From an uncultured Candidatus Saccharibacteria bacterium (GTDB lineage: Bacteria; Patescibacteriota; Minisyncoccia; Phycocordibacterales; Phycocordibacteraceae), in contig CAZJKG010000002.1 of the NCBI GenBank assembly GCA_964546795.1, positions 6,307-70,306 of the forward strand: 64,000 nucleotides of DNA. Direction: 5' to 3'. The translations under genes were made by a program, and so were the position numbers. The notes beneath the pieces are model-generated. The model was given only the letters and a program-made list of their open reading frames with translations, was not told the origin of the DNA and did no database searches. This document shows, in pieces, positions 3,844 through 49,092 of this stretch. Each line of letters begins with the position of its first letter. The first letter of the stretch is position 1.

Positions 3844-4380
3844 ATGACGCGGAAGTTGTACATGCTTGCCATTATGGCGATGCTCACGTTCACTGCGTGT
3901 ATCGGTCCAGGGCCGAGAGAGGAAGTTCGACTCAAGATGCCCGATGGCGAGACGGCGACCATCTTCGCTCACAATCAGCAAGTCCCGGACTGGATGTTGG
4001 ACCGGGAAAAGATGGCAATCAATTTCGTGCTCAAAGGCAGTGTGAGCAAAAAACAGCTTGCCGCCGTCGCTGAAACCGAACGCGCCTGCCGGCTCTATAC
4101 CGGTGTGGTCCGTCCGAACAACCTGGTCGCCGTGCTTTCCAGTGGCGTGCTCTACGCCGCCGCGGGAGCTCTTGGTGGGGGACTTGGTTCAATGGCAATT
4201 ACCGGAGCCGTTGCAAGCGAGTACGCCCAGTACAGTGCATCAGCGCTTGGAAGCGCTGGCCTTGCGAACGGTATCATCACTCTCGGAGGTCAGACCTATA
4301 CTTTCGAGAACTGTAGCCGGGAAGTGCTCGGCCTGTTCCCGAACTACAAGGTGCGAGTGTTGCAAAAGAGCCCGTACTGA
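3844..4380 (+). CDS. Hypothetical lipoprotein (signal peptide with lipobox 'FTAC')
   Basis: N-terminus 'MTRKLYMLAIMAMLTFTACIGPG' is a typical lipoprotein signal. The C-terminus is Gly/Ala-rich. No recognisable domain. Confidence 0.5.
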   Translation: MTRKLYMLAIMAMLTFTACIGPGPREEVRLKMPDGETATIFAHNQQVPDWMLDREKMAINFVLKGSVSKKQLAAVAETERACRLYTGVVRPNNLVAVLSSGVLYAAAGALGGGLGSMAITGAVASEYAQYSASALGSAGLANGIITLGGQTYTFENCSREVLGLFPNYKVRVLQKSPY

Positions 4381-4401
4381 GAGATGATCTTTCTGAAAAC
4401 A

Positions 4402-4433
4402 AATGGGCGCGAACCGCAAGGTTCGCGCCCATT
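4402..4433. terminator. Bidirectional rho-independent terminator (11-bp perfect stem)
   Basis: AAATGGGCGCGAACC-gcaa-GGTTCGCGCCCATT, followed by a T-rich tract. It sits between the convergent lipoprotein (+) and FKBP (-) genes. Confidence 0.65.
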
Positions 4434-4452
4434 AACATTTTCTGTTTCTGTA

Positions 4453-4977
4453 TTAACGAGTCGGTTTCTGGACTTTCAAGAGTTCAACCTGGAAAACGAG
4501 TGTTGCGTTCGCGGGGATGACAGGACCAACTGCCTGGTCGCCGTACGCAAGCGGCGCGGGAATAACGAGTGTGCGCTTTCCGCCTACTTTCATACCGACG
4601 ATTCCGAGATCCCAACCCTGGATAACCTGCCCCGCACCAAGATTGAATGTGAAGCCCTCGGAGCCATGATTGGCGGAAGCGTCAAAGACGGTGCCGTCGG
4701 TGAGCGAGCCGACATAGTTCAGAGTCACCGTGTCGCCCGTCTCAGCAACGGCGCCGGTACCAATAACATCATCAGTCGTCTGGAGTTGTGTGGCATCGAT
4801 AGGCATAGTGGTGGATGTAGGTTGATATTGGGTAGCACCTTGTAATGCTTGATCTTGCTCTATCGTCCCTATTGGTGCCGACGATTGATTAAAAGGCGAG
4901 AAATCCTGAGAGAAGAAGAGTATGGCGACCACCACAAGTGCGAGCGCCACGGCGATACCTGTCTGGGTTGGTTTCAT
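4453..4977 (-). CDS. FKBP-type peptidyl-prolyl cis-trans isomerase (secreted or membrane-anchored)
   Basis: C-terminal domain 'GTVFDAS...GAGQVIQGWDLGIVGMKVGGKRTLVIPAPLAYGDQ...LVFQVELLKV' is a canonical FKBP domain. The N-terminus has a TM/signal segment. Confidence 0.85.
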   Translation of the reverse strand: MKPTQTGIAVALALVVVAILFFSQDFSPFNQSSAPIGTIEQDQALQGATQYQPTSTTMPIDATQLQTTDDVIGTGAVAETGDTVTLNYVGSLTDGTVFDASANHGSEGFTFNLGAGQVIQGWDLGIVGMKVGGKRTLVIPAPLAYGDQAVGPVIPANATLVFQVELLKVQKPTR

Positions 4978-5019: not shown

Positions 5020-5328
5020 CTACGGGGCTTGGAAGGATTTAAAGCGTTTGACCTCTTCGGCAACGGCCTGCTTCGCTATCGCCTCATGGGTGGGAACCTC
5101 GCGATCAAGGAATGTTCTGAGTGACGCCGCGTCGCCCGCTTCCGAGAGCTTCACGAATTCTTCCTGCTTCCCGCCTTCAAGTTTTCCCACGACCGCAAGC
5201 GTCGCGGCCTTGAGAGCCACTTCGCCGAACTGCGCGATGAGCGCCTGCTGCTCCTCGGACGGAAGATCCGCAATACCGAGATCGGTAGCAATCGCAGCTG
5301 TTACTTCATCGGGCATAGGTGACATCAT
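5020..5328 (-). CDS. Hypothetical small acidic protein (102 aa)
   Basis: ORF with GC-rich codon usage consistent with the host. No recognisable motif. Confidence 0.35.
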   Translation of the reverse strand: MMSPMPDEVTAAIATDLGIADLPSEEQQALIAQFGEVALKAATLAVVGKLEGGKQEEFVKLSEAGDAASLRTFLDREVPTHEAIAKQAVAEEVKRFKSFQAP

Positions 5329-5336
5329 AGCATAGG

Positions 5337-7352
5337 TTATTTTATAAGTGCCTTAAATTCATCCGGTTCCGGTGCTTTCATAAAGGATTTGAAGAAACCA
5401 AAGAAACCGCTTGTTTGCACCGGTGCCCCAGGAGTCATCTCGCCTCCAACGAGATGCCAAGGAATACGGTATTTTCCATCACTATCAGTACCATAGATGA
5501 TGCTTTTCGGATGTTCCGCGAGATATTTCTGAATTAAAGAACCCTGATCTGCGAAGGAGCCACCATGAATGAATAGGTGTTTGACTCCCGGATCAGTATA
5601 AATGTGAGGATTGTCGATTGATATCGCGAGGCCAGAATTATTTACGATAATATCCTCGCCGCGTATGCTTCCTACAGGAAATTCTGACTCACTGGTGACG
5701 GTAGTTGGAGGCGCTGTAATGGATTCTGGTGCTGGAGGCGAAATTGAATCTGTTGTATTTAATTTTTCCTTGAGCCAATCTGAAAATTCTTCGAAAAGAC
5801 CTTTTTCTTGGGGAGGTCCGGGAGGCCATGCACCTATTTCTCTCGGATCGCGTATTCCTTTCTTTATTAGGTCATCATAATCCTTTGCTTCTTGCTCGGA
5901 CGCAAATGAATGTCCATTGGCGTCGCGTCCGAATGGGGCCTCCGGACTTACTTTCCCGGCCCCTTGAGCTTCTGGACCTTCGTCTATTTTCTCTGCCCCC
6001 GACGTGTCCCCTTCTATATTCTGCTGACCAGTTATTTCTCCCGTGTTCTTTGGAACATTTTGTTGTAAATTCTCCTGCACTATTTCGGCCCTCAATGCTT
6101 CATCTGCCTTGAAATCTGGATTTTCCAATTTGGCCCTGAATCTGTCCGCTTCGATTTTATTCAAAGCATCGTTCAGTTCCTGGTGTGCATTAAGATCGGC
6201 ATTCACTTCAGCTTTCAGTTCTTCCAGACCTTTAGCTTCAGAGGAAACCGTCTCATTTTCAACCGGAGAAATATCGTTACCGTAATCAGTCACCGCCTTG
6301 TCGATAGTGACTTGCTGTTCAGAAGCTAATTTTTGAGCTTCATCCAGAGTTTGCTTAACATCGGCAAACGCGCGATCTGTCGCAACTCGTGCTTCTGCCA
6401 ATTCGACGGCTGATGTATCGGGAGTGGACATTTCCGGCGTTGGTGTTTCCGCCGGCGCGGGAGCCGGTGATGTGTCAGGAATTCTTGGCTTTGTGAGTCC
6501 GGTATCTATTGGAGGAGCATCGGGCCCAAGTATGTTGCCAAGCCATTCATTCACCTTGAGCGTATTCAGAACTTCAACACCTTCGTGAACGACGAGTGCT
6601 GTACCTCCCATATATACTGCGGTGAGTATGGTCGCATACGTATTTTTGACTCGTTCCGACTTTCCTGCGAGCCAATAATCCTCTTTCGCTGCTATTTTTG
6701 CATCAAGCTTTTTCCGCTGGTTCATCGCGAAACCAATGCCGCCAAGCGCTCGCTGTCCGTACAACGCCACACTTAATATTCCGGAGAGAGTAGGTAACGT
6801 TATTGACGTAAGAGAAACACCAACAACGAGCGCGCTAGTGATGGTAAGTTTTGTCCTCCAATCCAACTTATTATATCGCTCGCTAGTAGCACCAATAAAT
6901 CCCGCCACTTTGGGACCATATTCTTTCGCCTTTTCCTGTAGACCATTTGAGCGCTCTGCAAGATATGCTTTTAAACGTTCGGTACGCTCTCCCATTTTAA
7001 GATGCTCTTTTGCACTCCCGGAAAATCCACTCAATTTCTCGCTCCACTCTTCTATCTTCGTGCCAACATCCTTGGAACGTTCTGAGAGATATTTCTTCAA
7101 ACCCTCAATTCGTAAAAGTCCCTCTTGCTTAGCTGTTTCGTAACGCTCTGTCGCACCCTCGATGAGCACACGCAATTTGTTGAGATGTTCTCTACGCGTA
7201 CTATCGTCGCTCTGAACTTTTTGTGGGCGTTCTAACTCAGGTACTCGCGGTTCTGAACCGATTATTCCTGCGAGATGGCGTGCGGCAAGCTTGTAATCGA
7301 TTTCTTCTTTTTTAGAATCTTTTTCTGGAGGTGGAAACCCAGGTTCTTTCAT
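5337..7352 (-). CDS. Large membrane/coiled-coil protein, probable partner of the downstream T4SS-like ATPase
   Basis: 671 aa. N-terminal coiled-coil region, two or three TM helices (for example 'LTITSALVVGVSLTSITLPTLSGILSVALYG'), a Pro-rich linker, an acidic coiled-coil and a conserved-looking C-terminal domain. Its start is 4 bp from the end of the ATPase gene (7357), on the same strand. Confidence 0.45.
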   Translation of the reverse strand: MKEPGFPPPEKDSKKEEIDYKLAARHLAGIIGSEPRVPELERPQKVQSDDSTRREHLNKLRVLIEGATERYETAKQEGLLRIEGLKKYLSERSKDVGTKIEEWSEKLSGFSGSAKEHLKMGERTERLKAYLAERSNGLQEKAKEYGPKVAGFIGATSERYNKLDWRTKLTITSALVVGVSLTSITLPTLSGILSVALYGQRALGGIGFAMNQRKKLDAKIAAKEDYWLAGKSERVKNTYATILTAVYMGGTALVVHEGVEVLNTLKVNEWLGNILGPDAPPIDTGLTKPRIPDTSPAPAPAETPTPEMSTPDTSAVELAEARVATDRAFADVKQTLDEAQKLASEQQVTIDKAVTDYGNDISPVENETVSSEAKGLEELKAEVNADLNAHQELNDALNKIEADRFRAKLENPDFKADEALRAEIVQENLQQNVPKNTGEITGQQNIEGDTSGAEKIDEGPEAQGAGKVSPEAPFGRDANGHSFASEQEAKDYDDLIKKGIRDPREIGAWPPGPPQEKGLFEEFSDWLKEKLNTTDSISPPAPESITAPPTTVTSESEFPVGSIRGEDIIVNNSGLAISIDNPHIYTDPGVKHLFIHGGSFADQGSLIQKYLAEHPKSIIYGTDSDGKYRIPWHLVGGEMTPGAPVQTSGFFGFFKSFMKAPEPDEFKALIK

Positions 7353-7356
7353 AGGG

Positions 7357-16599: not shown

Positions 16600-18171
16600 T
16601 TATTGCACCTCGAAGCTGAACATCATTCCGGTTTCAAGGTGCTCGGCGATATGGCAGTGTGCCATCCATTCGCCGGGATTGGTGATAACAAGCAGAATAT
16701 CGACATATTGTCCAGCAGGAACGAGTACTGTGTCTTTCCACACAAGATTCGTTTGTGGTACGCCGTTCCGGTCAAGCACTAGAAATTGCTGACCGTGAAA
16801 GTGTACCGGGTGTTGCATCGGGTGGTCCGAATTTGCGTCGTTGCTGATTCTGATTTTCACAGCATCGCTGACCTTAAATTTCCAATGAATGTCCATATTG
16901 GCCTTATCGGTGTCTTCGTCCACAATTTTCCAATCCGTCATTCCCGTATTCGACATCGCATTCATCATCGCCATAGTGTCCTCCCATTCGATGCCGTCAG
17001 GACTAAGCATCATGACATTGCTCATAACGGTGCCATCCGACATTCTGTGACTACCGCCCATGTTGGACATCATGCCACCCATCATGTCGATGGTGAGTGT
17101 GAGACGTTTGTCAATCGGTCTGTCAAAATACTGGCGGTACGGATCAATACTTTCAACTGCTGCGCTATTGGTACGAAGTGTTGCAAATGCTTCGGCGTAG
17201 GACGGTAAAGATTCATCGCCTGACACTGAAATCATTCCGAGCGCGTAGGTCTTGTCGGGGGTCTTATGTTGCATCGTGTATGACCCCTCCCTATCAAATA
17301 AAACTTCTACGACCGCGCGTTCCGAAGGTCCGATGATAACGGCATTTTTCCACTCCTCGCGCTCGCTTGCGCCGCCATCTCCGCCGACAAGTTTCATTTT
17401 AACCCCGGAAATAGCGAAGTTAAACGGCCGGGCATTTGCCGAATTGGTGATGTAAAAGCGGATGACCTCTCCCGTTCTCACAGGAAGTTGATACTCCGGC
17501 TCACCATTGACGAGCATCACGTTGCCGAAGCGGCCCATGAGCGTGCGATCGGCTCCTTTCGTGCTCAGATTGATCTTGCCGTCTTCAATGAGAATGTCAT
17601 CGAAAAAGAGCGCGACCTCGCGATTAACGGGGCTCCAGTACGTAGTATCGGAGGGAACGACAAGATAATTGCCATAGAGGCCGAGTTCCTGCTCGAAATC
17701 CTCACGGACATGTGGGTGATACCAATACACACCAGCGTCTGGGAATTTGAGCTTGTAGGAAAATGTTTCGCCCGGATGCATCTCTTTTTGCGACGTCTGC
17801 GAGCCGTCAAACTGGTTGTCCATGCGAACGCCGTGCGAGTGTAGCAGGGTCGGCATGTCCATATTGTTCTTGAAGTTGATAGTGATCTGTGCTCCCTGCG
17901 GGACTTTAATGAGAGGTCCCGGGATCGATCCATTGTACGCGAGCATCCGATACTCCGTACCGTTAATGTTTTTCGCGACATAGCTTGCAGTGAGGGCATA
18001 GGTGTCGCCGTTCTTCAACTCGACAGTTTCAGACGCTTTTACTTCAGACAACCCGGCAATGTCGGTACTGACGTACGCATTACTTCCACTATACGGCGAT
18101 CTCTGATAGAGAAAGAAACCACTGATAACTACCACTGCAACGAGAAGCACATGTAAGTATTTTTCATTCAT
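16600..18171 (-). CDS. Multicopper oxidase (CueO/laccase-like), secreted
   Basis: Type-1/type-3 copper motifs 'HPMQHPVHFHGQQF' and 'WMAHCHIAEHLETGMMF'. N-terminal TM/signal. A Met-rich segment 'MMGGMMSNMGGSHRM' is typical of CueO-type Cu(I)-binding inserts. Confidence 0.85.
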   Translation of the reverse strand: MNEKYLHVLLVAVVVISGFFLYQRSPYSGSNAYVSTDIAGLSEVKASETVELKNGDTYALTASYVAKNINGTEYRMLAYNGSIPGPLIKVPQGAQITINFKNNMDMPTLLHSHGVRMDNQFDGSQTSQKEMHPGETFSYKLKFPDAGVYWYHPHVREDFEQELGLYGNYLVVPSDTTYWSPVNREVALFFDDILIEDGKINLSTKGADRTLMGRFGNVMLVNGEPEYQLPVRTGEVIRFYITNSANARPFNFAISGVKMKLVGGDGGASEREEWKNAVIIGPSERAVVEVLFDREGSYTMQHKTPDKTYALGMISVSGDESLPSYAEAFATLRTNSAAVESIDPYRQYFDRPIDKRLTLTIDMMGGMMSNMGGSHRMSDGTVMSNVMMLSPDGIEWEDTMAMMNAMSNTGMTDWKIVDEDTDKANMDIHWKFKVSDAVKIRISNDANSDHPMQHPVHFHGQQFLVLDRNGVPQTNLVWKDTVLVPAGQYVDILLVITNPGEWMAHCHIAEHLETGMMFSFEVQ

Positions 18172-18176
18172 AGTAA

Positions 18177-20318
18177 TTATAATATTTTACGGCGAAGCAA
18201 TACGGCATTGATTGCTACGATAACCGTTGAAACGCTCATGAGTATCGCGGCGATTGCCGGCTCTAATACGACACCTTTTGATGCCAGCACGCCAGCCGCA
18301 AGCGGAATGGCGACCACATTGTACCCCGTGGCCCAAAAGAGATTCTGAATCATTTTCGCATACGTAAGCTTTGAAAGTTTGATGATCTTCGGAATATCCC
18401 TCGGGTCGTTTTTTACCAAGATGATTCCCGCCGATTCAATCGCGACATTTGTGCCAGCGCCAATCGCAATGCCGAGGTCAGCTTGCGTCAGAGCGGGAGC
18501 GTCATTGATACCGTCTCCGACCATCGCTACTTTTTTACCTTCGCTTTGGAGCAATCTTACTTTTTCGGCCTTTTGGCCCGGCATGACTTTGGCAAAATAT
18601 TCATCAATACCGAGTTCTCCTGCTACCCACGAAGCAACATCCTCCGAATCACCGGTAATCATCGCTGTCTTGACGCCAAGATTCTTCAGAGTTTGAATCG
18701 CCTCACGCGACTCCTCCCTGATGATGTCCGAAAGAGCGATACTGCCGAGAAGTTTCTTATCCACAATCACGTGAATGACCGTTTTGCCTTCTTTTGACAG
18801 CGTATCTATTTGATTTTGATACTCGCCTGAAATCAGTATGGTATGTTCTGTAAGCAAATCATCATTGCCGACGTACGCCTCTTTATTTTCTACACGTCCT
18901 TTTGCGCCTTTACCGGCAATGCGGAAAAAATCCGTTACCGGCATTAGAACAATGTTCCGCTTCTGGGCCTCCGCGACCATCGCCTTCGCTAGCGAGTGTT
19001 CTGAATGGCTATTGACCGAGGCCGCGATACTGAGAATGGTATCTTGGGAAACGTTGTTGCTCGCGATGATGGCGGCAACGCCGAATTCACCTTTGGTAAG
19101 GGTCCCTGTTTTATCGAACAACACCATATCAATGCTACGCGCCGCTTCAAGCGCACGGCGTTCTTTAACCAGCAATCCGTTCTTCGCTGCCATCGTGGTT
19201 GAAATAGATGCGACCAGAGGAACTGCGAGCCCGAGAGCGTGCGGACAGGTGATGACAAGGACGGCTACGAGCCGCTCGGTCGCAATCACAATACCCGCCC
19301 CGACTAGAACCCACACGCCGAAGGTAATCGTGCCGACCACGAGTGCGATGATGGTGAGATAGAACGCCGCTTGGTCCGAAAGCATCTGGAGACGCGACTT
19401 CGACGCTTCCGCATCGGCAACAAGCCGCATTACGCCTGCAAGAAACGTATGCTCGCCTATCTTTTCTATAGCTACCTTGATGCTTCCATCGCCGTTTGTG
19501 GAGCCAGCAATAACTGACGCGCCTATAGATTTTTCTACCGGACGCGATTCTCCGGTAATGACTGACTCATTTATGTCTGACCTCCCTTCAACGATCTTCC
19601 CATCGGCGGGGATCTTCGCTCCCGGCTTTACTAACACAATATCGCCTGCCCGAAGGTCGCCCAGTGGTATGATCTCGGTCTTATTCCCTCTTATGACTTC
19701 TGCCGTATCGGGCAAAAGTTTCGCCAATTCCCGCAATGCTCCCTGGGCACCTTGCACCGACTTCATCTCTATCCAGTGCCCGAGAAGCATAATGGCGATG
19801 AGCGATGAGAGTTCAAACAATAGATCGTGATGCCCGCCCAGAAGTATTGAAAAGAAACTGTAGAGGTACGCGGCTGTGATGGCGATGGCGATAAGCGTCA
19901 TCATCCCGGGCAATCGGGCTTGGAGTTCGCGATACGCGCTTGCTAGGAAAATCCACCCGCAATAGAAGAAAACGAAGCTTCCGACAATAAGGAAAACGTA
20001 CTGCGACCCGGGGAACTCCGGGGCCTGTATATTAAAGATTATTTTCGCCATTTCCGAATAGAAGAAAATTGGAATGGTCAGCGCAAAAGCAACCCAAAAC
20101 TTCCTCAGGAAAGATTCGGTTTGATGGCCCGCGTGCTTACCTGCCCCGCTGTCATGCGAAGCATGTACTTTGGGGTCGTGCGCTTCGTGCTCGTCGGCTT
20201 TCTTTGCGTCGGTCGGGATGAGATTCATTCCACACTCCGGACAGATGCCGGGCGTATCCCGTACAATCTCCGGATGCATCGGACAAGTATATAAATGTGT
20301 ATCGTGGGAATTTTTCAT
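18177..20318 (-). CDS. copA: Copper-translocating P1B-type ATPase (CopA-like)
   Basis: N-terminal Cys-rich metal-binding motif 'CPMHPE...CPECGM', TM motif 'CPH' ('ITCPHALGLAVP'), phosphorylation site 'DKTGTLT', and 'GDGINDAPAL'. Confidence 0.9.
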   Translation of the reverse strand: MKNSHDTHLYTCPMHPEIVRDTPGICPECGMNLIPTDAKKADEHEAHDPKVHASHDSGAGKHAGHQTESFLRKFWVAFALTIPIFFYSEMAKIIFNIQAPEFPGSQYVFLIVGSFVFFYCGWIFLASAYRELQARLPGMMTLIAIAITAAYLYSFFSILLGGHHDLLFELSSLIAIMLLGHWIEMKSVQGAQGALRELAKLLPDTAEVIRGNKTEIIPLGDLRAGDIVLVKPGAKIPADGKIVEGRSDINESVITGESRPVEKSIGASVIAGSTNGDGSIKVAIEKIGEHTFLAGVMRLVADAEASKSRLQMLSDQAAFYLTIIALVVGTITFGVWVLVGAGIVIATERLVAVLVITCPHALGLAVPLVASISTTMAAKNGLLVKERRALEAARSIDMVLFDKTGTLTKGEFGVAAIIASNNVSQDTILSIAASVNSHSEHSLAKAMVAEAQKRNIVLMPVTDFFRIAGKGAKGRVENKEAYVGNDDLLTEHTILISGEYQNQIDTLSKEGKTVIHVIVDKKLLGSIALSDIIREESREAIQTLKNLGVKTAMITGDSEDVASWVAGELGIDEYFAKVMPGQKAEKVRLLQSEGKKVAMVGDGINDAPALTQADLGIAIGAGTNVAIESAGIILVKNDPRDIPKIIKLSKLTYAKMIQNLFWATGYNVVAIPLAAGVLASKGVVLEPAIAAILMSVSTVIVAINAVLLRRKIL

Positions 20319-21581: not shown

Positions 21582-22304
21582 TTATTTTCCCTGCAGGGCC
21601 AGATCAATAAGTTGTTTCACCGCAGAGTACGGCTGCGCTCCGGAGAGCGGATATTTTTTTCCGTTCTTTGCAATCACAATGCTCCATGGTGTTCCGTTTC
21701 CGCCCGTTGCCGCGGCATTTTGTACATCTTCCTCAATATGCTTGGTGAATTTCCCGCTAGTCAGACAGGTATTGAACTTCGCCATATCAAGACCTACGTA
21801 TGCGGCTATCTTGAGGAGCTCGGCCGGATCTAGTCCGTTATTGGAGGGGGTTACTTCATAGAGGCGATCCGTGTAGGTCCAGAATGGGTTGTTGCCCCCT
21901 TGATCGCCGGCGCATTCAAGAGCGACCGTTTCATTCCGTGCCTTTGGGTGGAGTTGGTCCAAAGGGAAATGACGATAGACCCATGCAACTCTTCCGTCCT
22001 TGCCGTATTCATCCATGACTTGCTTCATGGTCTCGTGGAATCGTTTGCAGAAAGGACATTCAGGATCCGAGTATTCAACTATTTTGACCGGCGCATCAGG
22101 ATTGCCTCGAATATGGTCGGCGGCGCTTATCGGCCTCATCTTATCCAAATCGCTTGTCTGCGGCGCCCCTGCCGCCGCTTGGGGCTGCGCCGCCGGAATG
22201 GTTGTAGAACTACCGTGGAAAAATATGGCACCGGCGATGAGAACTCCGGCGATAATGATGGCCGAAGAAATTGATATATTGCTTTGCTTTGAACCTGTTT
22301 CCAT
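21582..22304 (-). CDS. DsbA-family thiol:disulfide oxidoreductase (third copy in window)
   Basis: TM anchor plus active site 'YSDPECPFCKRFHE' in a DsbA fold. Confidence 0.8.
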   Translation of the reverse strand: METGSKQSNISISSAIIIAGVLIAGAIFFHGSSTTIPAAQPQAAAGAPQTSDLDKMRPISAADHIRGNPDAPVKIVEYSDPECPFCKRFHETMKQVMDEYGKDGRVAWVYRHFPLDQLHPKARNETVALECAGDQGGNNPFWTYTDRLYEVTPSNNGLDPAELLKIAAYVGLDMAKFNTCLTSGKFTKHIEEDVQNAAATGGNGTPWSIVIAKNGKKYPLSGAQPYSAVKQLIDLALQGK

Positions 22305-24363: not shown

Positions 24364-25941
24364 TTATGTATTGGAGAGCAAGTTAAGGACCGCCGTATAT
24401 GCGGAACTGATCAAGAATCCGCGATCAAAACTAGTGGAGGTTAGTGGAGAAAGCGGTGATATATAGGAACTGCTGTCAGGATAGGTGCTTCCGGAAGACG
24501 GTGGCGCGTACGAACTGTCCGGTGAGGATTGACTCTTTTCTTCGTAGGTCTCAGTACCTCCTGAAGACGGAGAATACGAAGGTGATGGATATGTATTTTG
24601 ATCTTGTTGGTATTTCTGATACTCGGATTCATACTGCTTTTGATATTCTTGCTGATACTGACTCTGGTATTGCTTCTGATACTCGTCTTGATATTGATTT
24701 TGAAAATCTCCGGTATTCGGAGGAAGAGACATCATTCCGTCCGGTACGTCGCCCTGTCTTCCTTGCATCACCCTCGTGGGAAAGGCCTCTATTCCCTCCT
24801 CTGTGCCCCGGAAACTCCGCTCGCCCTCAAATCCCTGCATCATCCCCTCCGGAGAGAGATGCTCGTCAGGACGCTGCATGAAGCCATGTTCTTCGGCAAA
24901 TTCTTGGCATTCATTTTGATGTGACGCATCCTCGCAATACGTTTTACACTCAAATCCTTTGCAACCGCCCGGACCGGTACTATTGAAAAGTTTCTCGGCC
25001 TGATCGAGCTGTTCTTGTGGAATAAGATCGTGCTCTTTGGCAAAGGCAAAACACACTTCGCGATTGTCCGGATTATCGCAGTATGTGCGGCATTCTTCTC
25101 CGCGGCAGCCGCCGGGACCCTCGATATTCATGAATTTCCGCGCACGCTCGCTATCCTCTTTCGAAATGAGACCGTTCTCTTCCGCGAACGCAAGACACTC
25201 CTCACTATGAGTGGAATCTTCGCAATAGGTTCTGCATTCAACGCCTCTACAACCTCCCGGACCGGTTTTGCCGATAAAGTGCTTTGCTTTGACAAGCTCT
25301 TCCTGCGACATGAGTCCATGTTCTTCGGCAAAAGCAAGACACACCTCCGCATGCGAGACATCCTCGCAGTATATTCGACATTCCTCTCTTTTACAGCCAC
25401 CTGGACCCGCTTCAGTTCCCATCCTCTTTGCCATAACTGCCTCTTCTTTTGAAATGAATCCGTTTTCCTCCGCAAACGCGAGACATTCGTCGAAGTGTGC
25501 ATCGTCCTCGCAGTACGCTTTGCATTCAATACCATGACAACCACCCGGTCCTGACTTCTCTTTGAGAATTCGCGCATATTTAGCATCCTCCGCTTTTATG
25601 ATCCCGTGCTCCTCGGCAAAGTCAATGCACTCTTCAAAATGTTCCTTGACTTCACAGTACGCTCGGCACTCCACCCCCATGCAGCCCCCCGGACCTTCGA
25701 TACTGCCGATTTTCCGAGCTATCGCTGCGTCCTCCTTACCAATCAGATCGTGCGCTTCAGCAAAAGAGAGACATTGATTGATATTCGCTTTAAGATCGCA
25801 ATATACTTTGCATGCTTCCTTCGATTCACAACCACCGAGTTCTGCAACCGGAAACATGATATCGACCTCCGCGGCGTACGCTACGCCTCCGACGAGCAGT
25901 GTGAGCGCAAGAAAGTTCGTCGCGAATATCCTGCGGGACAT
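24364..25941 (-). CDS. Secreted cysteine-rich tandem-repeat protein with a Q/Y/S/P-rich low-complexity C-terminal region
   Basis: Signal peptide 'MSRRIFATNFLALTLLVGGVAYAA'. Eight tandem ~44-aa repeats of consensus 'GPGGCxGxECxxYCEDxxHxxECLAFAEEHGLIsxEE..kAkk', each with four Cys and one His. The tail is 'QNQYQDEYQKQYQSQYQQEYQKQYESEYQKYQQDQ' followed by an S/P/Y-rich stretch. Confidence 0.7.
   Translation of the reverse strand: MSRRIFATNFLALTLLVGGVAYAAEVDIMFPVAELGGCESKEACKVYCDLKANINQCLSFAEAHDLIGKEDAAIARKIGSIEGPGGCMGVECRAYCEVKEHFEECIDFAEEHGIIKAEDAKYARILKEKSGPGGCHGIECKAYCEDDAHFDECLAFAEENGFISKEEAVMAKRMGTEAGPGGCKREECRIYCEDVSHAEVCLAFAEEHGLMSQEELVKAKHFIGKTGPGGCRGVECRTYCEDSTHSEECLAFAEENGLISKEDSERARKFMNIEGPGGCRGEECRTYCDNPDNREVCFAFAKEHDLIPQEQLDQAEKLFNSTGPGGCKGFECKTYCEDASHQNECQEFAEEHGFMQRPDEHLSPEGMMQGFEGERSFRGTEEGIEAFPTRVMQGRQGDVPDGMMSLPPNTGDFQNQYQDEYQKQYQSQYQQEYQKQYESEYQKYQQDQNTYPSPSYSPSSGGTETYEEKSQSSPDSSYAPPSSGSTYPDSSSYISPLSPLTSTSFDRGFLISSAYTAVLNLLSNT
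24774..25860 (-). repeat. Tandem ~132-bp coding repeats (8 copies) within the Cys-rich protein gene
   Basis: Periodic recurrence at protein level of 'GPGGC..EC..YCE....H..EC.AFAEEHG'. Boundaries approximate. Confidence 0.65.
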
Positions 25942-46882: not shown

Positions 46883-47758
46883 ATGATACCATCGTGCGCA
46901 ATGGTGAGGCAAATTTTATGCATAATCGGCCCGACCGCCTCCGGGAAATCTTCTCGCGCGGTCGAGGAAGCCCTCGTTCGCAACGGCGAGATTATCTCAG
47001 TTGATTCGCGACAAGTATACCGCGGACTTGATATCGGCACTGAGAAAATTACTCCCGAGAAAATGTGTGGGATTCCTCACCACCTTATTGATATCCGTAA
47101 TCCGAAGGAGAATTATTCCGCCGGAGATTTTGTCGCGGATGCGACTCGCCTCATTAAGGATATTTCGGCTCGTGGGAAGCTCCCCATCCTTGTCGGAGGA
47201 ACGCATTTTTATTTCCACGCGCTTCTCCATGGCCTTCCGATGGGAATCGATGCAAATCCCCTGCTTCGCGAAGAACTTGAAACACTTTCCGCGGAAGAGC
47301 TCTATGCGCGCGTCCGCCTGGCGGACGCGCGCCGGGCTGCGGAATTGGATTCCAAGAATCGCCGCCGACTCATCCGCGCCCTTGAAATCATTGTCTCCCT
47401 TGGCACCGTCCCACCGCGCAGCTTAACTGCAACTTCATTTGGTACAAGGTTGAACCTTGTAAAATATGTTGTTGAATGGATAGTGATTGACCCACCAAAA
47501 GAGGAATTGAGCGCAAGAATAGACGCGCGGTTAGAAAGCGCACTTGCACGCGGACTTATTGATGAGGTACGACGTGTGCGCGAAGCGGTCGGTGATACGC
47601 GACTGAATGAACTGGGGCTTGAATATAAAATAGTGGGCGAGTTTTTGCGCGGAGAACGCACTGAAGCATCGCTTCTTCCGGCTCTCTCGGCAAAACTCTG
47701 GCAGTATGCACGACGCCAAAAGGCGTGGCTACGCAAACTAGGACATCGGATGTCCTAG
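46883..47758 (+). CDS. miaA: tRNA dimethylallyltransferase
   Basis: P-loop 'IIGPTASGKSS' and 'DSRQVYRGLDIGTEKIT...IPHHLIDI'. Confidence 0.85.
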   Translation: MIPSCAMVRQILCIIGPTASGKSSRAVEEALVRNGEIISVDSRQVYRGLDIGTEKITPEKMCGIPHHLIDIRNPKENYSAGDFVADATRLIKDISARGKLPILVGGTHFYFHALLHGLPMGIDANPLLREELETLSAEELYARVRLADARRAAELDSKNRRRLIRALEIIVSLGTVPPRSLTATSFGTRLNLVKYVVEWIVIDPPKEELSARIDARLESALARGLIDEVRRVREAVGDTRLNELGLEYKIVGEFLRGERTEASLLPALSAKLWQYARRQKAWLRKLGHRMS

Positions 47759-49092
47759 TTTGCGTCTTTTATTTTATTATAGTATTGGCTAACCTTAGTA
47801 ACATAATTTCTCGTTTCGATATAACCCGTATTGGGAATAGTGTGTGCCTTATTATCCCATTCGCACTGCCATCTTGAAGAATTGGGGCAATCTCGGCTTG
47901 GTTTATTAGCTCCCGGGCCGCCATTATAGGCGGCGATGATTTTATTTACATCGCCATCATATTTGGCGGACAAATTCTTGAGATAAGCCGTACCGAGTTT
48001 AACATTGTAAACATGATCTGTTAATAATTTTTCTCTAACCTGAGCGTCCGATAAATTCTTCAGTGCTTCTTTATCGACCTCTCGCGCAGTATCAATTCTG
48101 ATCTGCATACGTCCTAAGGACTCTGTACCATCTCTGGCGGTATTAATGATATGATCATCTTTCCTGTTAGATGATTCCGTTTGAATAATAGCTTTCACTA
48201 AATCTGGATCTACGCCATTAATACGTGTTGGTTGCGCAGGTGCGGACGAAGGTGATGGAGTGGGCGATGTCGGGGCCGGTTCCGACGTTTGTTTACTTTG
48301 TTCATCAATTACCTGTTGTACTAAATTACTCGCTTCTGGAGCAATAGGGTCTGTATCTGTATAAGGAGGTTCAGGGGGTTTTTGCTTTAAGCCATCAGTT
48401 TCTGGCACACTTTTGAAAGCAGGTGTGCTAATAGTAACTCCGTCTTCTTTAGTATAACAATTACCATCATCGTCACAAGAAAAACCGTCGAGCGTGGCTA
48501 TTGCCACCGATCTCTGAGCGGGAGTAGCTGGTAAAATCGGTGGTTTTGAAAGTGCTGATGCGGGAGATGATGCGCTTGGTTGCTGTGCAACAGAGAGAGT
48601 CGGCGAGGCGGCTGTAGAAGGCGATGCCGATGAGGAAACCGAACCTTTCTGCTTAAGGCAGGGGTCGCTAGGGTTGCTGATGATGAGCTGCGACCACGTA
48701 GAACCGATGGAACCGGTTGGGTGATACAGGACCGCCATAATCGCATCAACGATGAGCCATCCTGAAAGCGCAATAACGATGCCGACTATTGTGTGGGTAA
48801 GAATACTCTTCGCCTCCTCTCTGCCGCTCGGGTTTACCGGATTCACCACGAAGAGGAACCCGGAATAGGCAATCATCAGTGGCGCGACGAATACGATAGC
48901 GAGCGTGATGAGCAAGCTGATGATGTTGTTGATGACAGTGACGAGCATTCCCCAACCGGCGGGACAAGCCGCATATTGTTCTGGGATAATGGGGCCGAAG
49001 AAAGGTATCCCGCCGGCGTGTGCGGCAAGAGGCACTACAAGTACGGAACTTATTATAAGCAAAGGCGCGAATGCGAGAATTCGAGAACGCAT
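47755..49092 (-). CDS. Pilin-like (TrbC/VirB2-type two-helix) N-terminal domain fused to a lytic transglycosylase (SLT/VirB1-like) domain
   Basis: N-terminus: signal peptide, then 'AACPAGWGMLVTVINNIISLLITLAIVFVAPLMIAYSGFLFVVNP...GREEAKSILTHTIVGIVIALSGWLIVDAIM'. It shares the 'hydrophobic helix – charged loop – WG..G hydrophobic helix' pattern of the pilin-like array at 61.2–63.5 kb. An S/P/T-rich linker follows. C-terminal SLT motifs: 'SLGRMQIRI...', 'GTAYLKNL' and 'AYNGGPGA'. Confidence 0.65.
   Translation of the reverse strand: MRSRILAFAPLLIISSVLVVPLAAHAGGIPFFGPIIPEQYAACPAGWGMLVTVINNIISLLITLAIVFVAPLMIAYSGFLFVVNPVNPSGREEAKSILTHTIVGIVIALSGWLIVDAIMAVLYHPTGSIGSTWSQLIISNPSDPCLKQKGSVSSSASPSTAASPTLSVAQQPSASSPASALSKPPILPATPAQRSVAIATLDGFSCDDDGNCYTKEDGVTISTPAFKSVPETDGLKQKPPEPPYTDTDPIAPEASNLVQQVIDEQSKQTSEPAPTSPTPSPSSAPAQPTRINGVDPDLVKAIIQTESSNRKDDHIINTARDGTESLGRMQIRIDTAREVDKEALKNLSDAQVREKLLTDHVYNVKLGTAYLKNLSAKYDGDVNKIIAAYNGGPGANKPSRDCPNSSRWQCEWDNKAHTIPNTGYIETRNYVTKVSQYYNKIKDAN

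What the first reader, a model, noticed from the sequence alone, without database searches (positions are those of the whole stretch)
5337..10131. VirD4/VirB4-family T4SS-type ATPase co-transcribed with a large membrane/coiled-coil protein
The 925–958 aa ATPase has Walker A 'GQTGTGKTG', a DPHG motif and a C-terminal region typical of TraG/VirD4/TrbE-type transport ATPases. It is immediately followed (4-bp gap, same strand) by a 671-aa protein with coiled coils, TM helices and a conserved C-terminal domain. No other T4SS core genes are adjacent, so this may be a minimal or non-canonical DNA/protein translocation module.
Basis: partly seen in the sequence, partly recalled or inferred. Interest (0 to 1): 0.55.

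Follow-up and report, generated by a model that had tools for sequence, protein, structure and literature searches.

The report
Orphan coupling-protein-like ATPase with variable partner
This is a highly conserved, chromosomal relative of the "coupling" motor ATPases of bacterial conjugation, from an ultrasmall Patescibacteria bacterium, sitting next to a fast-evolving membrane protein; such orphan motors are already known to be common in this group, but what they do is unknown.

Summary
7357..10131(-) encodes a 924-aa P-loop ATPase (Walker A GQTGTGKT, DPHG, Walker B YIDEFQN). Four bases downstream lies a 671-aa protein with about three membrane helices and a conserved C-terminal domain. No T4SS core gene lies within about 10 kb.

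The ATPase domain is VirD4/TrwB coupling-protein (T4CP) type by Pfam, NCBIfam, PDB profile and fold, not HerA/FtsK. Three things were not in the finding:
- It has no membrane helix. Its roughly 800-aa relatives carry one N-terminal TM helix, which this clade has replaced with a helical extension.
- Its N-terminal domain (DUF8128) folds like the N-terminal domain of VirB4.
- It is vertically inherited among housekeeping genes and about as conserved as TGT and UvrB.

The partner is positionally conserved in 43 of 52 related loci but hypervariable. In at least four lineages it has decayed together with the next small gene, so it is accessory rather than a channel core.

Orphan T4CP homologues are already reported as near-universal in Patescibacteria and rarely near virB4 (PMC12102498). 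Bacillus plasmid homologues occupy the T4CP slot next to a relaxase-family gene.

Best reading: a membrane-recruited translocase motor serving a dispersed T4SS-like apparatus. A T4SS-independent role remains possible. I call it a new variant of a known kind, of moderate interest.

The parts
7357..10131 (-). Gene for the 924-aa TM-less T4CP-like ATPase (DUF8128 + VirD4/TrwB-type P-loop domain)
   Evidence: Identical to P0001. At least 947 homologues were scored, and the top 120 are all 79% identical or more, from Patescibacteria. No TM segment was found.
9715..10131 (-). N-terminal helical extension (residues 1-139), specific to this clade; it replaces the single N-terminal TM helix of the ~800-aa relatives
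   Evidence: The AF2 model shows helices H10-130. In the family comparison, relatives at 39% identity or more have a 128-160-residue extension without a TM, while most ~800-aa relatives have one N-terminal TM helix.
8677..9714 (-). DUF8128 domain (residues 140-485), with a VirB4-N-terminal-domain-like fold
   Evidence: Precomputed PF26449 hits. The domain model has pLDDT 92.8. The top 13 Foldseek PDB hits are all TrwK/VirB4, E 4e-5 to 2.6e-3, TMq 0.28-0.45.
7360..8676 (-). T4CP-type nucleotide-binding domain with an all-alpha insertion (residues 486-924; helical insertion about 600-716)
   Evidence: Pfam TraG-D_C, TrwB_AAD_bind and DUF87. NCBIfam TraD and CD1115 VirD4-like models. PDB profile matches TrwB at 4e-7 and DotL at 5.6e-6. 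Foldseek TrwB E 3e-11, TMt 0.64.
8530..8553 (-). Walker A, GQTGTGKT (residues 527-534)
   Evidence: G527, G530, G532 and K533 are invariant in 66 sequences.
7771..7794 (-). Walker B, LYIDEFQN (residues 780-787)
   Evidence: D783 and E784 are invariant.
5337..7352 (-). Gene for the 671-aa hypervariable membrane partner. Predicted topology: N-terminal ~166 aa cytoplasmic and helical, about 3 TM helices, Pro/Thr-rich linker, then a long extracytoplasmic region
   Evidence: A homologous large ORF starts within about 60 nt of the ATPase stop in 43 of 52 loci of the clade with 62% or more ATPase identity.
6576..6854 (-). TM region of the partner (residues 167-259; segments 167-189, 190-210, 238-259), part of the conserved module covering about residues 100-300
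   Evidence: Hydropathy and loop charges: loop 211-237 has net +4. The module is conserved in relatives.
5340..5654 (-). Conserved C-terminal domain of the partner (residues 567-671), with no match to any known family
   Evidence: alignment A3. No Pfam or PDB match.
5020..5328 (-). Gene for a 102-aa acidic helical protein (its orthologue has a weak DUF5663 hit), present or absent together with the partner
   Evidence: Median identity is 69% in the clade.
4453..4977 (-). Gene for a membrane-anchored FKBP-type peptidyl-prolyl isomerase, the last gene of the putative transcription unit
   Evidence: Pfam FKBP_C 2.3e-32. N-terminal hydrophobic segment at residues 1-29.
4402..4433 (.). Bidirectional terminator-like hairpin with a 14-bp stem, closing the unit
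   Evidence: This is a consensus scan only.

Best explanation
Shown. The 924-aa protein is a catalytically intact P-loop translocase ATPase of the VirD4/TrwB coupling-protein (T4CP) type. It is fused to an N-terminal domain (DUF8128) that folds like the N-terminal domain of VirB4. It belongs to a very large family found mostly in Patescibacteria and encoded among housekeeping genes. Typical members are anchored by one N-terminal TM helix. This clade has replaced that helix with a soluble helical extension. The gene sits in an apparent four-gene unit with a fast-evolving ~3-TM protein that probably exposes most of its length outside the cell, a small acidic protein, and a membrane-anchored FKBP. 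Inferred. Like other T4CPs, the protein probably forms a hexameric ring at the cytoplasmic face of the membrane. It would be recruited there in trans, perhaps by the cytoplasmic helical N-terminus of the partner, by analogy with the TM-less T4CP TraJ and the membrane protein TraI of pIP501. It would use ATP to hand or drive a macromolecular substrate (protein or DNA) into the T4SS-like apparatus that most Patescibacteria encode elsewhere on the chromosome. The partner cassette is a lineage-specific accessory (anchor, adaptor or surface factor), not a core channel component.
For: T4CP identity:
- Pfam TraG-D_C and TrwB_AAD_bind score above their cut-offs.
- NCBIfam TraD and VirD4-like CD1115 models match, the latter over residues 551-876 of the 958-aa ORF (about 517-842 in the 924-aa numbering).
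- The family profile hits TrwB (4e-7) and DotL (5.6e-6) as its only significant PDB matches.
- The AF2 model (pLDDT 89) superposes on TrwB over about 430 columns, TMt 0.64, and also matches Cagbeta.
- A TM-anchored relative, P0213, passes Pfam T4SS-DNA_transf.
- Sources name relatives 'TraM recognition domain' or 'type IV secretory system conjugative DNA transfer family'.

Walker A and B residues are invariant.

VirB4-like NTD: the whole model aligns to TrwK/VirB4 over about 920 columns. The NTD-only model (pLDDT 92.8) has VirB4 as all of its 13 best PDB hits.

Functional slot: in a 24.7-kb Bacillus subtilis plasmid, a TM-less homologue (23% identity over residues 167-880) lies immediately upstream of a Replic_Relax-family gene, followed by TcpC, a TcpE-annotated gene and a VirB4-like AAA_10 ATPase.

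Literature:
- 5,713 VirD4-type T4CP homologues occur in 2,918 of 3,035 Patescibacteria genomes, only 148 of them near virB4. VirB4 is present in 2,417 genomes (PMC12102498).
- A T4CP subclass lacking a TMD and working with a small membrane protein is recognised (PMC7434980).

Selection: median identity in the clade is 78% for the ATPase, against 76% for TGT, 85% for UvrB, 63% for FKBP and 36% for the partner.

Partner linkage: it starts 4 nt after the ATPase stop, and 43 related loci have a homologous ORF in the same position.
Against: - No T4SS or relaxase gene lies near the ATPase in the window or in any of the Patescibacteria loci examined. Whether this genome has VirB4 at all could not be checked.
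- T4CP homologues occur in more Patescibacteria genomes (2,918) than VirB4 does (2,417). In S. epibionticum the t4cp homologue was not essential while other T4SS genes were, and the authors leave exaptation open.
- NCBIfam scores are far below every equivalog cut-off (58 against 366), so it is not an orthologue of any characterised coupling protein.
- The anchor role of the partner is pure inference. Lineages at about 50% identity have the same TM-less extension but no partner-like neighbour. Several close lineages have lost the TM part of the partner.
- Hexamer formation, substrate and membrane association were not tested.
Confidence: 0.55

Rival explanations
1. An exapted, T4SS-independent translocase. 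The DUF8128-T4CP ATPase works on its own or with lineage-specific partners, for example pumping or processing DNA for uptake, nucleotide salvage or chromosome handling. It no longer couples substrates to a VirB4-type channel.
For: - The genes are almost always far from virB4, are found in more genomes than VirB4, and the homologue is not essential in S. epibionticum where the T4SS is. The authors explicitly leave exaptation open.
- The gene is embedded in housekeeping, often nucleic-acid-related, neighbourhoods in three different lineages: UvrB/UvrA/TGT, NDK/RNase J/Ham1, and RmuC/gyrase.
- It is as conserved as core enzymes.
- Homologues occur in Bacillus phages (phage G gp156, SPO1-like phages), which have no T4SS.
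- Competence genes are dispensable for growth in S. epibionticum, so another nucleotide-acquisition route is being sought (PMC11665869).
Against: - Small genomes are rich in informational genes, so the neighbourhood signal is weak.
- The VirB4-like NTD and the Bacillus plasmid context point to work within a T4SS.
- T4CP genes are often encoded away from virB4 in bona fide systems.
- No DNA-binding or nuclease partner was found.
Confidence: 0.28
2. One reading: the ATPase and the 671-aa membrane protein together form a self-sufficient minimal translocation or secretion module.
For: - The gap is 4 nt, and the partner is conserved in position in 43 of 52 related loci.
- TM anchoring is complementary: the ATPase is TM-less and the partner has TMs here, whereas in L086/L087 the ATPase is TM-anchored and followed by a soluble helical partner.
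- One database protein (P0296, 1543 aa) fuses the ATPase to a partner-like sequence.
Against: - About 3 TM helices and no conserved polar pore make the partner an unlikely channel.
- It is hypervariable: 25-56% identity over about a quarter of its length, while the ATPase stays at 62-89%.
- It is deleted or truncated, together with the 102-aa gene, in L001/L002, L009, L020 and L047, where the ATPase is intact.
- The clade at about 50% identity lacks it.
- The P0296 fusion replaces the last ~30 residues of the ATPase and may be a frameshift artefact.
Confidence: 0.1
3. A housekeeping HerA/FtsK-type DNA translocase (repair or division), or a decayed remnant of a mobile element or prophage.
For: - The best single Pfam E-value is DUF87 'HerA central domain' (1.1e-6).
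- The Foldseek HerA hit has E 2.8e-11, TMt 0.55.
- Weak PADLOC HerA, DndH and mad8 hits.
- Homologues exist on phages and plasmids.
Against: - The DUF87 match covers only the P-loop (53 residues).
- HerA is not significant in the profile-against-PDB search (0.011 or worse).
- No NurA or other nuclease neighbour, no FtsK_SpoIIIE hit, and no multi-TM N-terminus or gamma domain.
- The NTD matches VirB4, not a HerA HAS barrel.
- Against a remnant: catalytic residues are intact, synteny is conserved across dozens of MAGs, conservation is at housekeeping level, and GC (0.48-0.54) matches the window.
Confidence: 0.05

Closest known systems
VirD4/TrwB/TraD/DotL type IV coupling proteins (T4CP)
   Same: P-loop NBD with a helical insertion. 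Pfam TraG-D_C and TrwB_AAD_bind signatures. TrwB and DotL are the only significant PDB sequence-profile matches. Foldseek TrwB TMt 0.64.
   Different: No N-terminal TMD. An extra ~350-aa VirB4-NTD-like domain and a 139-aa helical extension. Chromosomal and vertically inherited, with no relaxase or T4SS neighbours. Scores are far below every NCBIfam equivalog cut-off.
TM-less T4CP TraJ of pIP501 with its membrane partner TraI (the 'T4CP lacking TMD' subclass, PMC7434980)
   Same: A soluble T4CP encoded next to a membrane protein that is proposed to recruit it.
   Different: No sequence comparison with TraJ or TraI was made here. The partner here is large (529-1267 aa in relatives), hypervariable and dispensable. 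There is no surrounding tra operon.
VirB4/TrwK/TrbE ATPases
   Same: Two-domain layout. The NTD fold matches the TrwK NTD (top 13 PDB hits), and the whole model aligns over about 920 columns.
   Different: No CagE_TrbE_VirB or AAA_10 signature. VirB4_CagE scores 15 bits against a cut-off of 643. hhalign to a Bacillus plasmid VirB4-like protein gives probability 2.5%. No VirB3, VirB6 or VirB8 neighbours.
Orphan VirD4-type T4CP homologues of Patescibacteria (Quinonero-Coronel et al. 2025, PMC12102498)
   Same: Same phylum, same annotation class, same orphan chromosomal placement away from virB4. Very probably counted among their 5,713 hits.
   Different: That paper gives no domain architecture, TM status, NTD fold or partner genes. 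Membership of this exact protein in their table was not verified.
Bacillus plasmid and phage 'DUF87 domain-containing proteins' (e.g. WP_121549396.1; phage G gp156; phrog_5156)
   Same: Full-length homologues (DUF8128-like NTD plus NBD), also TM-less. The plasmid copy sits in the T4CP slot beside a Replic_Relax-family gene and Tcp-like transfer genes.
   Different: Only about 20-24% identity. These lie on mobile elements, whereas the window gene is a core chromosomal gene.
HerA / FtsK-SpoIIIE translocases
   Same: Same ASCE P-loop superfamily, and a fold-level match (HerA TMt 0.55).
   Different: No HAS barrel or NurA partner, and no FtsK TM or gamma domains. The sequence match is confined to the P-loop.

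Membership tests
T4CP (VirD4/TrwB/TraG/TraD) | FtsK/HerA-superfamily P-loop NBD with intact Walker A and B | tested here: met
   GQTGTGKT at 527-534 and YIDEFQN at 781-787. K533, D783 and E784 are invariant in 66 sequences.
T4CP (VirD4/TrwB/TraG/TraD) | Family-specific sequence signatures at or above curated cut-offs | tested here: met
   PF12696 TraG-D_C scores 26.9 (cut-off 22) and PF10412 TrwB_AAD_bind scores 21.6 (cut-off 20.5). PF02534 passes only in relative P0213 (29, cut-off 20.1). NCBIfam TraD models match but far below equivalog cut-offs.
T4CP (VirD4/TrwB/TraG/TraD) | TrwB-like fold (NBD plus all-alpha domain) | tested here: met
   Foldseek TrwB E 3e-11, about 430 columns, TMt 0.62-0.67. 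Cagbeta also matches. There is a helical insertion at residues 600-716.
T4CP (VirD4/TrwB/TraG/TraD) | N-terminal transmembrane domain | tested here: not met
   No hydrophobic segment above threshold. Most ~800-aa relatives do have one N-terminal TM helix. A TMD-less T4CP subclass is recognised.
T4CP (VirD4/TrwB/TraG/TraD) | Genetic linkage to a relaxase and/or mating-pair-formation genes | tested here: not met
   None within about 10 kb in the window or in any Patescibacteria locus examined. Met only for a distant Bacillus plasmid homologue. The rest of this genome is not available.
T4CP (VirD4/TrwB/TraG/TraD) | Couples substrate (relaxosome or effector) to a T4SS channel | not testable with these tools
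   Needs genetics or biochemistry.
VirB4/TrbE/TraC | VirB4-type N-terminal domain | tested here: inconclusive
   The NTD model's top 13 PDB hits are all TrwK/VirB4 (E 4e-5 to 2.6e-3), but TMq is only 0.28-0.45 and identity 7-9%.
VirB4/TrbE/TraC | VirB4 sequence signature (PF03135 CagE_TrbE_VirB, PF12846 AAA_10, TIGR00929) | tested here: not met
   No Pfam hit. TIGR00929 scores 15 bits against a cut-off of 643. hhalign to a plasmid AAA_10 VirB4-like protein gives probability 2.5%. No VirB4 chain appears in the profile-against-PDB sequence search.
HerA | HAS-barrel N-domain and a NurA-type nuclease partner | tested here: not met
   The DUF87 match is limited to the P-loop. The NTD fold matches VirB4, not HerA. 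No nuclease gene is adjacent.
FtsK/SpoIIIE | Multi-TM N-terminus, FtsK_SpoIIIE motor signature, gamma domain | tested here: not met
   No TM and no PF01580 hit.
DUF8128 (PF26449) proteins | Match to PF26449 | tested here: met
   Precomputed PF26449 hit for the identical protein P0001 and for all listed homologues. The local Pfam scan returned no PF26449 hit.

The most novel reading that the evidence does not exclude
DUF8128-T4CP ATPases are a distinct third lineage of T4SS-type motors: a VirB4-type N-domain joined to a VirD4-type motor. They became a core, vertically inherited machine of Patescibacteria. Together with lineage-specific, rapidly diversifying partner proteins, they drive a host-interaction or macromolecule-import process (for example DNA or nucleotide acquisition from the host cell) that is independent of the canonical VirB4 channel.
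Probability: 0.15. Interest if true: 0.75.

Novelty: new variant of a known kind. Interest (0 to 1): 0.4.

Why it matters
Patescibacteria are a large part of bacterial diversity. They cannot make nucleotides, amino acids or lipids, and the role of their T4SS-like genes is described as completely unknown (PMC11665869). A coupling-protein-like motor that is nearly universal in the phylum, as conserved as DNA-repair enzymes and usually detached from the T4SS genes is a good candidate for part of their host-dependence machinery. The details found here give concrete, testable hypotheses for the few cultivable, genetically tractable Patescibacteria. Those details are the VirB4-like N-domain, the TM anchor swapped for a helical extension, the hypervariable and probably surface-exposed partner cassette, and the plasmid homologues in the coupling-protein slot. 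The existence of orphan T4CP homologues is already published, so the advance is incremental.

Tried and rejected
- My first look at one relative (L001/L002) suggested the 671-aa gene was not a conserved neighbour. The survey of 80 genome loci overturned that: it is present in most close relatives and secondarily lost in a few.
- I asked whether the 102-aa protein is a VirB3-like membrane protein. It is not. It is acidic, helical and soluble.
- I looked for T4SS components in the rest of the window. The only hit is an isolated T4SS_pilin+SLT fusion about 38 kb away, among housekeeping genes.
- Searches with the partner and its C-terminal domain against Pfam, NCBIfam, PHROGs, PADLOC and PDB found nothing significant.
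- There are no tandem repeats in the region.
- hhalign of the family profile against a plasmid VirB4-like protein was not significant.
- The closest plasmid hit to the NBD (Sulfitobacter, 35% identity) is a stand-alone 395-aa orphan among transposases and says nothing about function.
- A literature search for DUF8128 found no papers. A search for the Bacillus DUF87/replication-relaxation pairing also found none.
- I did not verify that this protein is in the supplementary T4CP table of PMC12102498.
Full report
**1. What is there**

On the minus strand, ORF 7357..10233 (958 aa) is followed after 4 nt by ORF 5337..7352 (671 aa). Database homologues of the first protein are 916-934 aa and align from the internal Met (MESTPKL...). 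The gene is therefore 7357..10131, 924 aa, identical to P0001.

- Walker A GQTGTGKT at residues 527-534
- DPHG at 555-558
- Walker B LYIDEFQN at 780-787

They lie in invariant columns of a 66-sequence alignment that reaches down to 29% identity.

Downstream come an 8-nt gap, a 102-aa gene (5020..5328), a 42-nt gap, and a membrane-anchored FKBP isomerase (4453..4977). The only strong terminator-like hairpin on this strand (14-bp stem, 4402..4433) follows FKBP. A four-gene transcription unit is therefore plausible, but it is inferred.

The surroundings are housekeeping genes: UvrB, TGT, DedA, a ZIP transporter, DsbA-like proteins, a copper oxidase and CopA, topoisomerase I, RelA/SpoT, ClpB, IF-2 and tRNAs. 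GC content is even across the window. Named homologues come from Kaiserbacteria, Paceibacterota and Parcubacteria, so the window is a Patescibacteria chromosome.

**2. Identity of the ATPase**

Sequence evidence points to the coupling-protein (T4CP) branch of the FtsK/HerA superfamily.
- Pfam TraG-D_C and TrwB_AAD_bind pass their gathering cut-offs. The DUF87/HerA match is confined to 53 residues around the P-loop.
- The best NCBIfam models are TraD coupling proteins and the VirD4-like CD1115 family, the latter aligned across the whole NBD. All score far below equivalog cut-offs. VirB4_CagE scores 15 bits against a cut-off of 643.
- A profile of 66 family members finds TrwB (4e-7) and DotL (5.6e-6) as the only significant PDB sequences. 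HerA scores 0.011 or worse, and no VirB4 chain appears.
- A TM-anchored relative (P0213) passes Pfam T4SS-DNA_transf.
- tblastn with the NBD alone reaches plasmid genes annotated as T4SS DNA-binding or conjugative DNA-transfer proteins in archaea, Firmicutes and Proteobacteria.

**3. Structure**

The AF2 model is confident (pLDDT 89.2). The C-terminal 430 residues superpose on TrwB (E 3e-11, TMt about 0.64), and less well on HerA (TMt 0.55) and Cagbeta. They include an all-helical insertion (about residues 600-716) between Walker A and Walker B, as in T4CPs.

Unexpectedly, the lowest-E-value hits are TrwK/VirB4 chains aligned over about 920 columns. I modelled residues 140-485 alone (Pfam DUF8128; pLDDT 92.8). 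All 13 best PDB hits of that domain are TrwK/VirB4 (E 4e-5 to 2.6e-3, TMq 0.28-0.45). The fold similarity is moderate, so I treat 'VirB4-NTD-like' as probable rather than proven.

The protein thus combines a VirB4-style layout with a VirD4-style motor.

**4. Membrane anchoring**

The window protein has no TM segment. In the wider family, 20,691 50%-identity cluster representatives match at E of 1e-3 or better, and 5,270 at 1e-30 or better. Most are about 800 aa and begin with one hydrophobic helix followed by basic residues, directly before DUF8128. All sampled relatives at 39% identity or more instead carry a 128-160-residue helical extension with no TM. The TM-anchored forms are also from Patescibacteria and are annotated as VirD4/TraG-like. 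This clade has therefore lost its in-cis anchor.

**5. The partner**

The 671-aa protein has only 25 word-level homologues in the protein database. Synteny tells a different story. Among 52 loci with 62% or more ATPase identity and enough downstream sequence, 45 have a large ORF (529-1267 aa) starting within about 60 nt of the ATPase stop (most within 5-21 nt). Of these, 43 join the window protein in one BLAST cluster.

Two modules are shared:
- a helical-plus-TM module (about residues 100-300)
- a C-terminal domain of about 105 aa

The N-terminal extension and the linker between them vary.

Loop charges are +2 before TM1, +4 between TM2 and TM3, and -1 after TM3. This suggests an N-in, C-out topology, with the Pro/Thr-rich linker and C-terminal domain outside the cell (inference).

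Median identities to the window proteins across the clade are:

| Protein | Median identity |
|---|---|
| ATPase | 78% |
| UvrB | 85% |
| TGT | 76% |
| DedA | 72% |
| 102-aa protein | 69% |
| FKBP | 63% |
| Partner | 36%, over about 26% of its length |

In L001/L002, L009, L020 and L047 the partner is absent or reduced to a 114-163-aa remnant of its N-terminal part, which lies before the TM module, and the 102-aa gene is missing. The ATPase there is intact.

The clade at about 50% identity has other neighbours, with NDK downstream in 12 loci, plus RNase J and Ham1.

In an unrelated lineage with a TM-anchored ATPase (L086, L087), the gene is again followed, with zero spacing or an overlap, by a 587-678-aa soluble, charged, helical protein of no known family. 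The context there is PheRS, YkuD and gyrase genes.

One database entry (P0296) fuses the ATPase to a partner-like sequence, but this may be a frameshift artefact.

**6. Homologues with informative context**

A 24.7-kb Bacillus subtilis plasmid encodes a TM-less full-length homologue (23% identity over residues 167-880). It lies immediately upstream of a Replic_Relax-family gene. TcpC, a gene annotated as TcpE-family, a VirB4-like AAA_10 ATPase and further genes annotated as conjugal-transfer proteins follow. That is the coupling-protein slot of a Gram-positive conjugation locus.

Full-length homologues also occur in Bacillus phages: phrog_5156 at 1.9e-64, phage G gp156 at Foldseek E 4e-41, and SPO1-like phages. 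Their function is unknown.

**7. Literature**

- Quinonero-Coronel et al. 2025 (PMC12102498) found VirB4 in 2,417 of 3,035 Patescibacteria genomes and 5,713 VirD4-type T4CP homologues in 2,918 genomes. Only 148 of the T4CP homologues lie near virB4.
- The same paper notes that the S. epibionticum t4cp homologue was not essential while other T4SS genes were, and that exaptation cannot be excluded.
- A review recognises a T4CP subclass without a TMD that works with a small membrane protein (TraJ and TraI of pIP501; PMC7434980).
- The role of the Patescibacteria T4SS is called completely unknown. Effector delivery and DNA or nucleotide uptake have been suggested (PMC11665869).
- No paper mentions DUF8128.

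**8. Mechanism**

Shown: an intact T4CP-type motor with a VirB4-like N-domain, no TM in this clade, core-gene-like conservation, and tight linkage to a dispensable, fast-evolving membrane protein.

Inferred (confidence about 0.55 for the whole statement): it forms a hexameric ring recruited to the membrane in trans, and feeds or energises transfer of a protein or DNA substrate through the T4SS-like apparatus encoded elsewhere. The partner cassette would serve as a lineage-specific anchor, adaptor or surface factor.

The main rival (about 0.28) is an exapted, T4SS-independent translocase, for example for DNA or nucleotide acquisition. An autonomous two-protein module (about 0.1) is disfavoured by the partner's small TM content, its variability and its repeated loss. 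A HerA/FtsK housekeeping role or a mobile-element remnant (about 0.05) is disfavoured by the profile, fold, synteny and conservation data.

**9. Novelty and score**

The kind of gene (an orphan T4CP homologue in Patescibacteria) is published, and hundreds of proteins 80% identical or more are in databases. To my knowledge the following are new:
- the VirB4-like fold of DUF8128
- the swap of the TM helix for a helical extension
- the hypervariable partner plus 102-aa cassette
- the link to plasmid homologues in the T4CP slot

I rate it a new variant of a known kind, with interest 0.4.

Noticed in passing
window 47755..49092 (-): A 445-aa protein fuses a T4SS_pilin-like N-terminal region (PF18895, 25.6 bits, just under the 26.6 cut-off) to an SLT lytic transglycosylase domain. 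It stands alone among housekeeping genes (MiaA, peroxiredoxin, ParB, tRNA-Trp, ClpB). It is the only other T4SS-related gene in the window.
   Followed up: partly
family-wide (P0164-P0289 versus P0146-P0163): Most ~800-aa members of the DUF8128-T4CP family have one N-terminal TM helix directly before DUF8128. The clade containing the window protein has replaced it with a 128-160-residue soluble helical extension.
   Followed up: yes
P0201, P0205, P0210, P0219, P0234: Giant family members of 1.6-2.0 kaa consist of TM helix + DUF8128 + ATPase + a ~900-aa Pro/Ala-rich low-complexity tail. The tail ends in a conserved motif, GEVFVDExGNVIIGE. Their taxon is unknown.
   Followed up: no
P0296 (1543 aa, Parcubacteria GW2011_GWB1_57_6): The ATPase is fused in frame to a partner-like protein with the same TM module. 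The last ~30 ATPase residues are replaced. This is either a real gene fusion or a frameshift or assembly artefact.
   Followed up: partly
L086:7580-12686 and L087:7614-12499: In a different Patescibacteria lineage, a TM-anchored family member is preceded by a 128-138-aa acidic protein. It is followed, with zero spacing or an overlap, by a 587-678-aa soluble, charged, helical protein with no Pfam match. This recurring 'ATPase + large orphan protein' layout sits in a PheRS, YkuD and gyrase context.
   Followed up: partly
L067-L078, L083 (relatives at about 50% identity): Nucleoside diphosphate kinase lies just downstream of the ATPase in 12 loci, often with RNase J. In L061 a Ham1 NTP pyrophosphatase lies upstream. 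This may be plain synteny or a hint of a link to nucleotide metabolism.
   Followed up: partly
L009, L020, L047 (first ORF after the ATPase): ORFs of 114-163 aa are truncated remnants of the partner's N-terminal part, which lies before the TM module. The TM region, the C-terminal part and the 102-aa gene are deleted.
   Followed up: yes
window 4384..4845 (+) and 4402..4433: ORF 4384..4845(+) overlaps the FKBP gene and contains the 14-bp-stem bidirectional terminator-like hairpin, so it is probably not a gene. The 178-aa ORF 3844..4380(+) has two hydrophobic segments and no family match.
   Followed up: partly
window 10119..10131: The divergent DedA (GTG start at 10119, + strand) and ATPase (start at 10131, - strand) ORFs overlap by 13 nt at their 5' ends. 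Relatives have only about 23 nt between the two genes. Their promoters must lie inside each other's coding regions, or the DedA start is further downstream.
   Followed up: no
window 12637..14084 and 21582..22304 (-); 16600..20318 (-): There are three DsbA-like thioredoxin paralogues, and a copper-resistance pair (multicopper oxidase + CopA P-type ATPase with an HMBD domain). ORFs 15291..16352 (353 aa) and 24364..25941 (525 aa) have no Pfam match.
   Followed up: no
L085 (Sulfitobacter mediterraneus plasmid NZ_CP081110.1, 99994-101181): The closest plasmid relative of the NBD (35% identity, E 4e-62) is a stand-alone 395-aa protein without the DUF8128 domain. It lies among recombinase and transposase genes.
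   Followed up: partly
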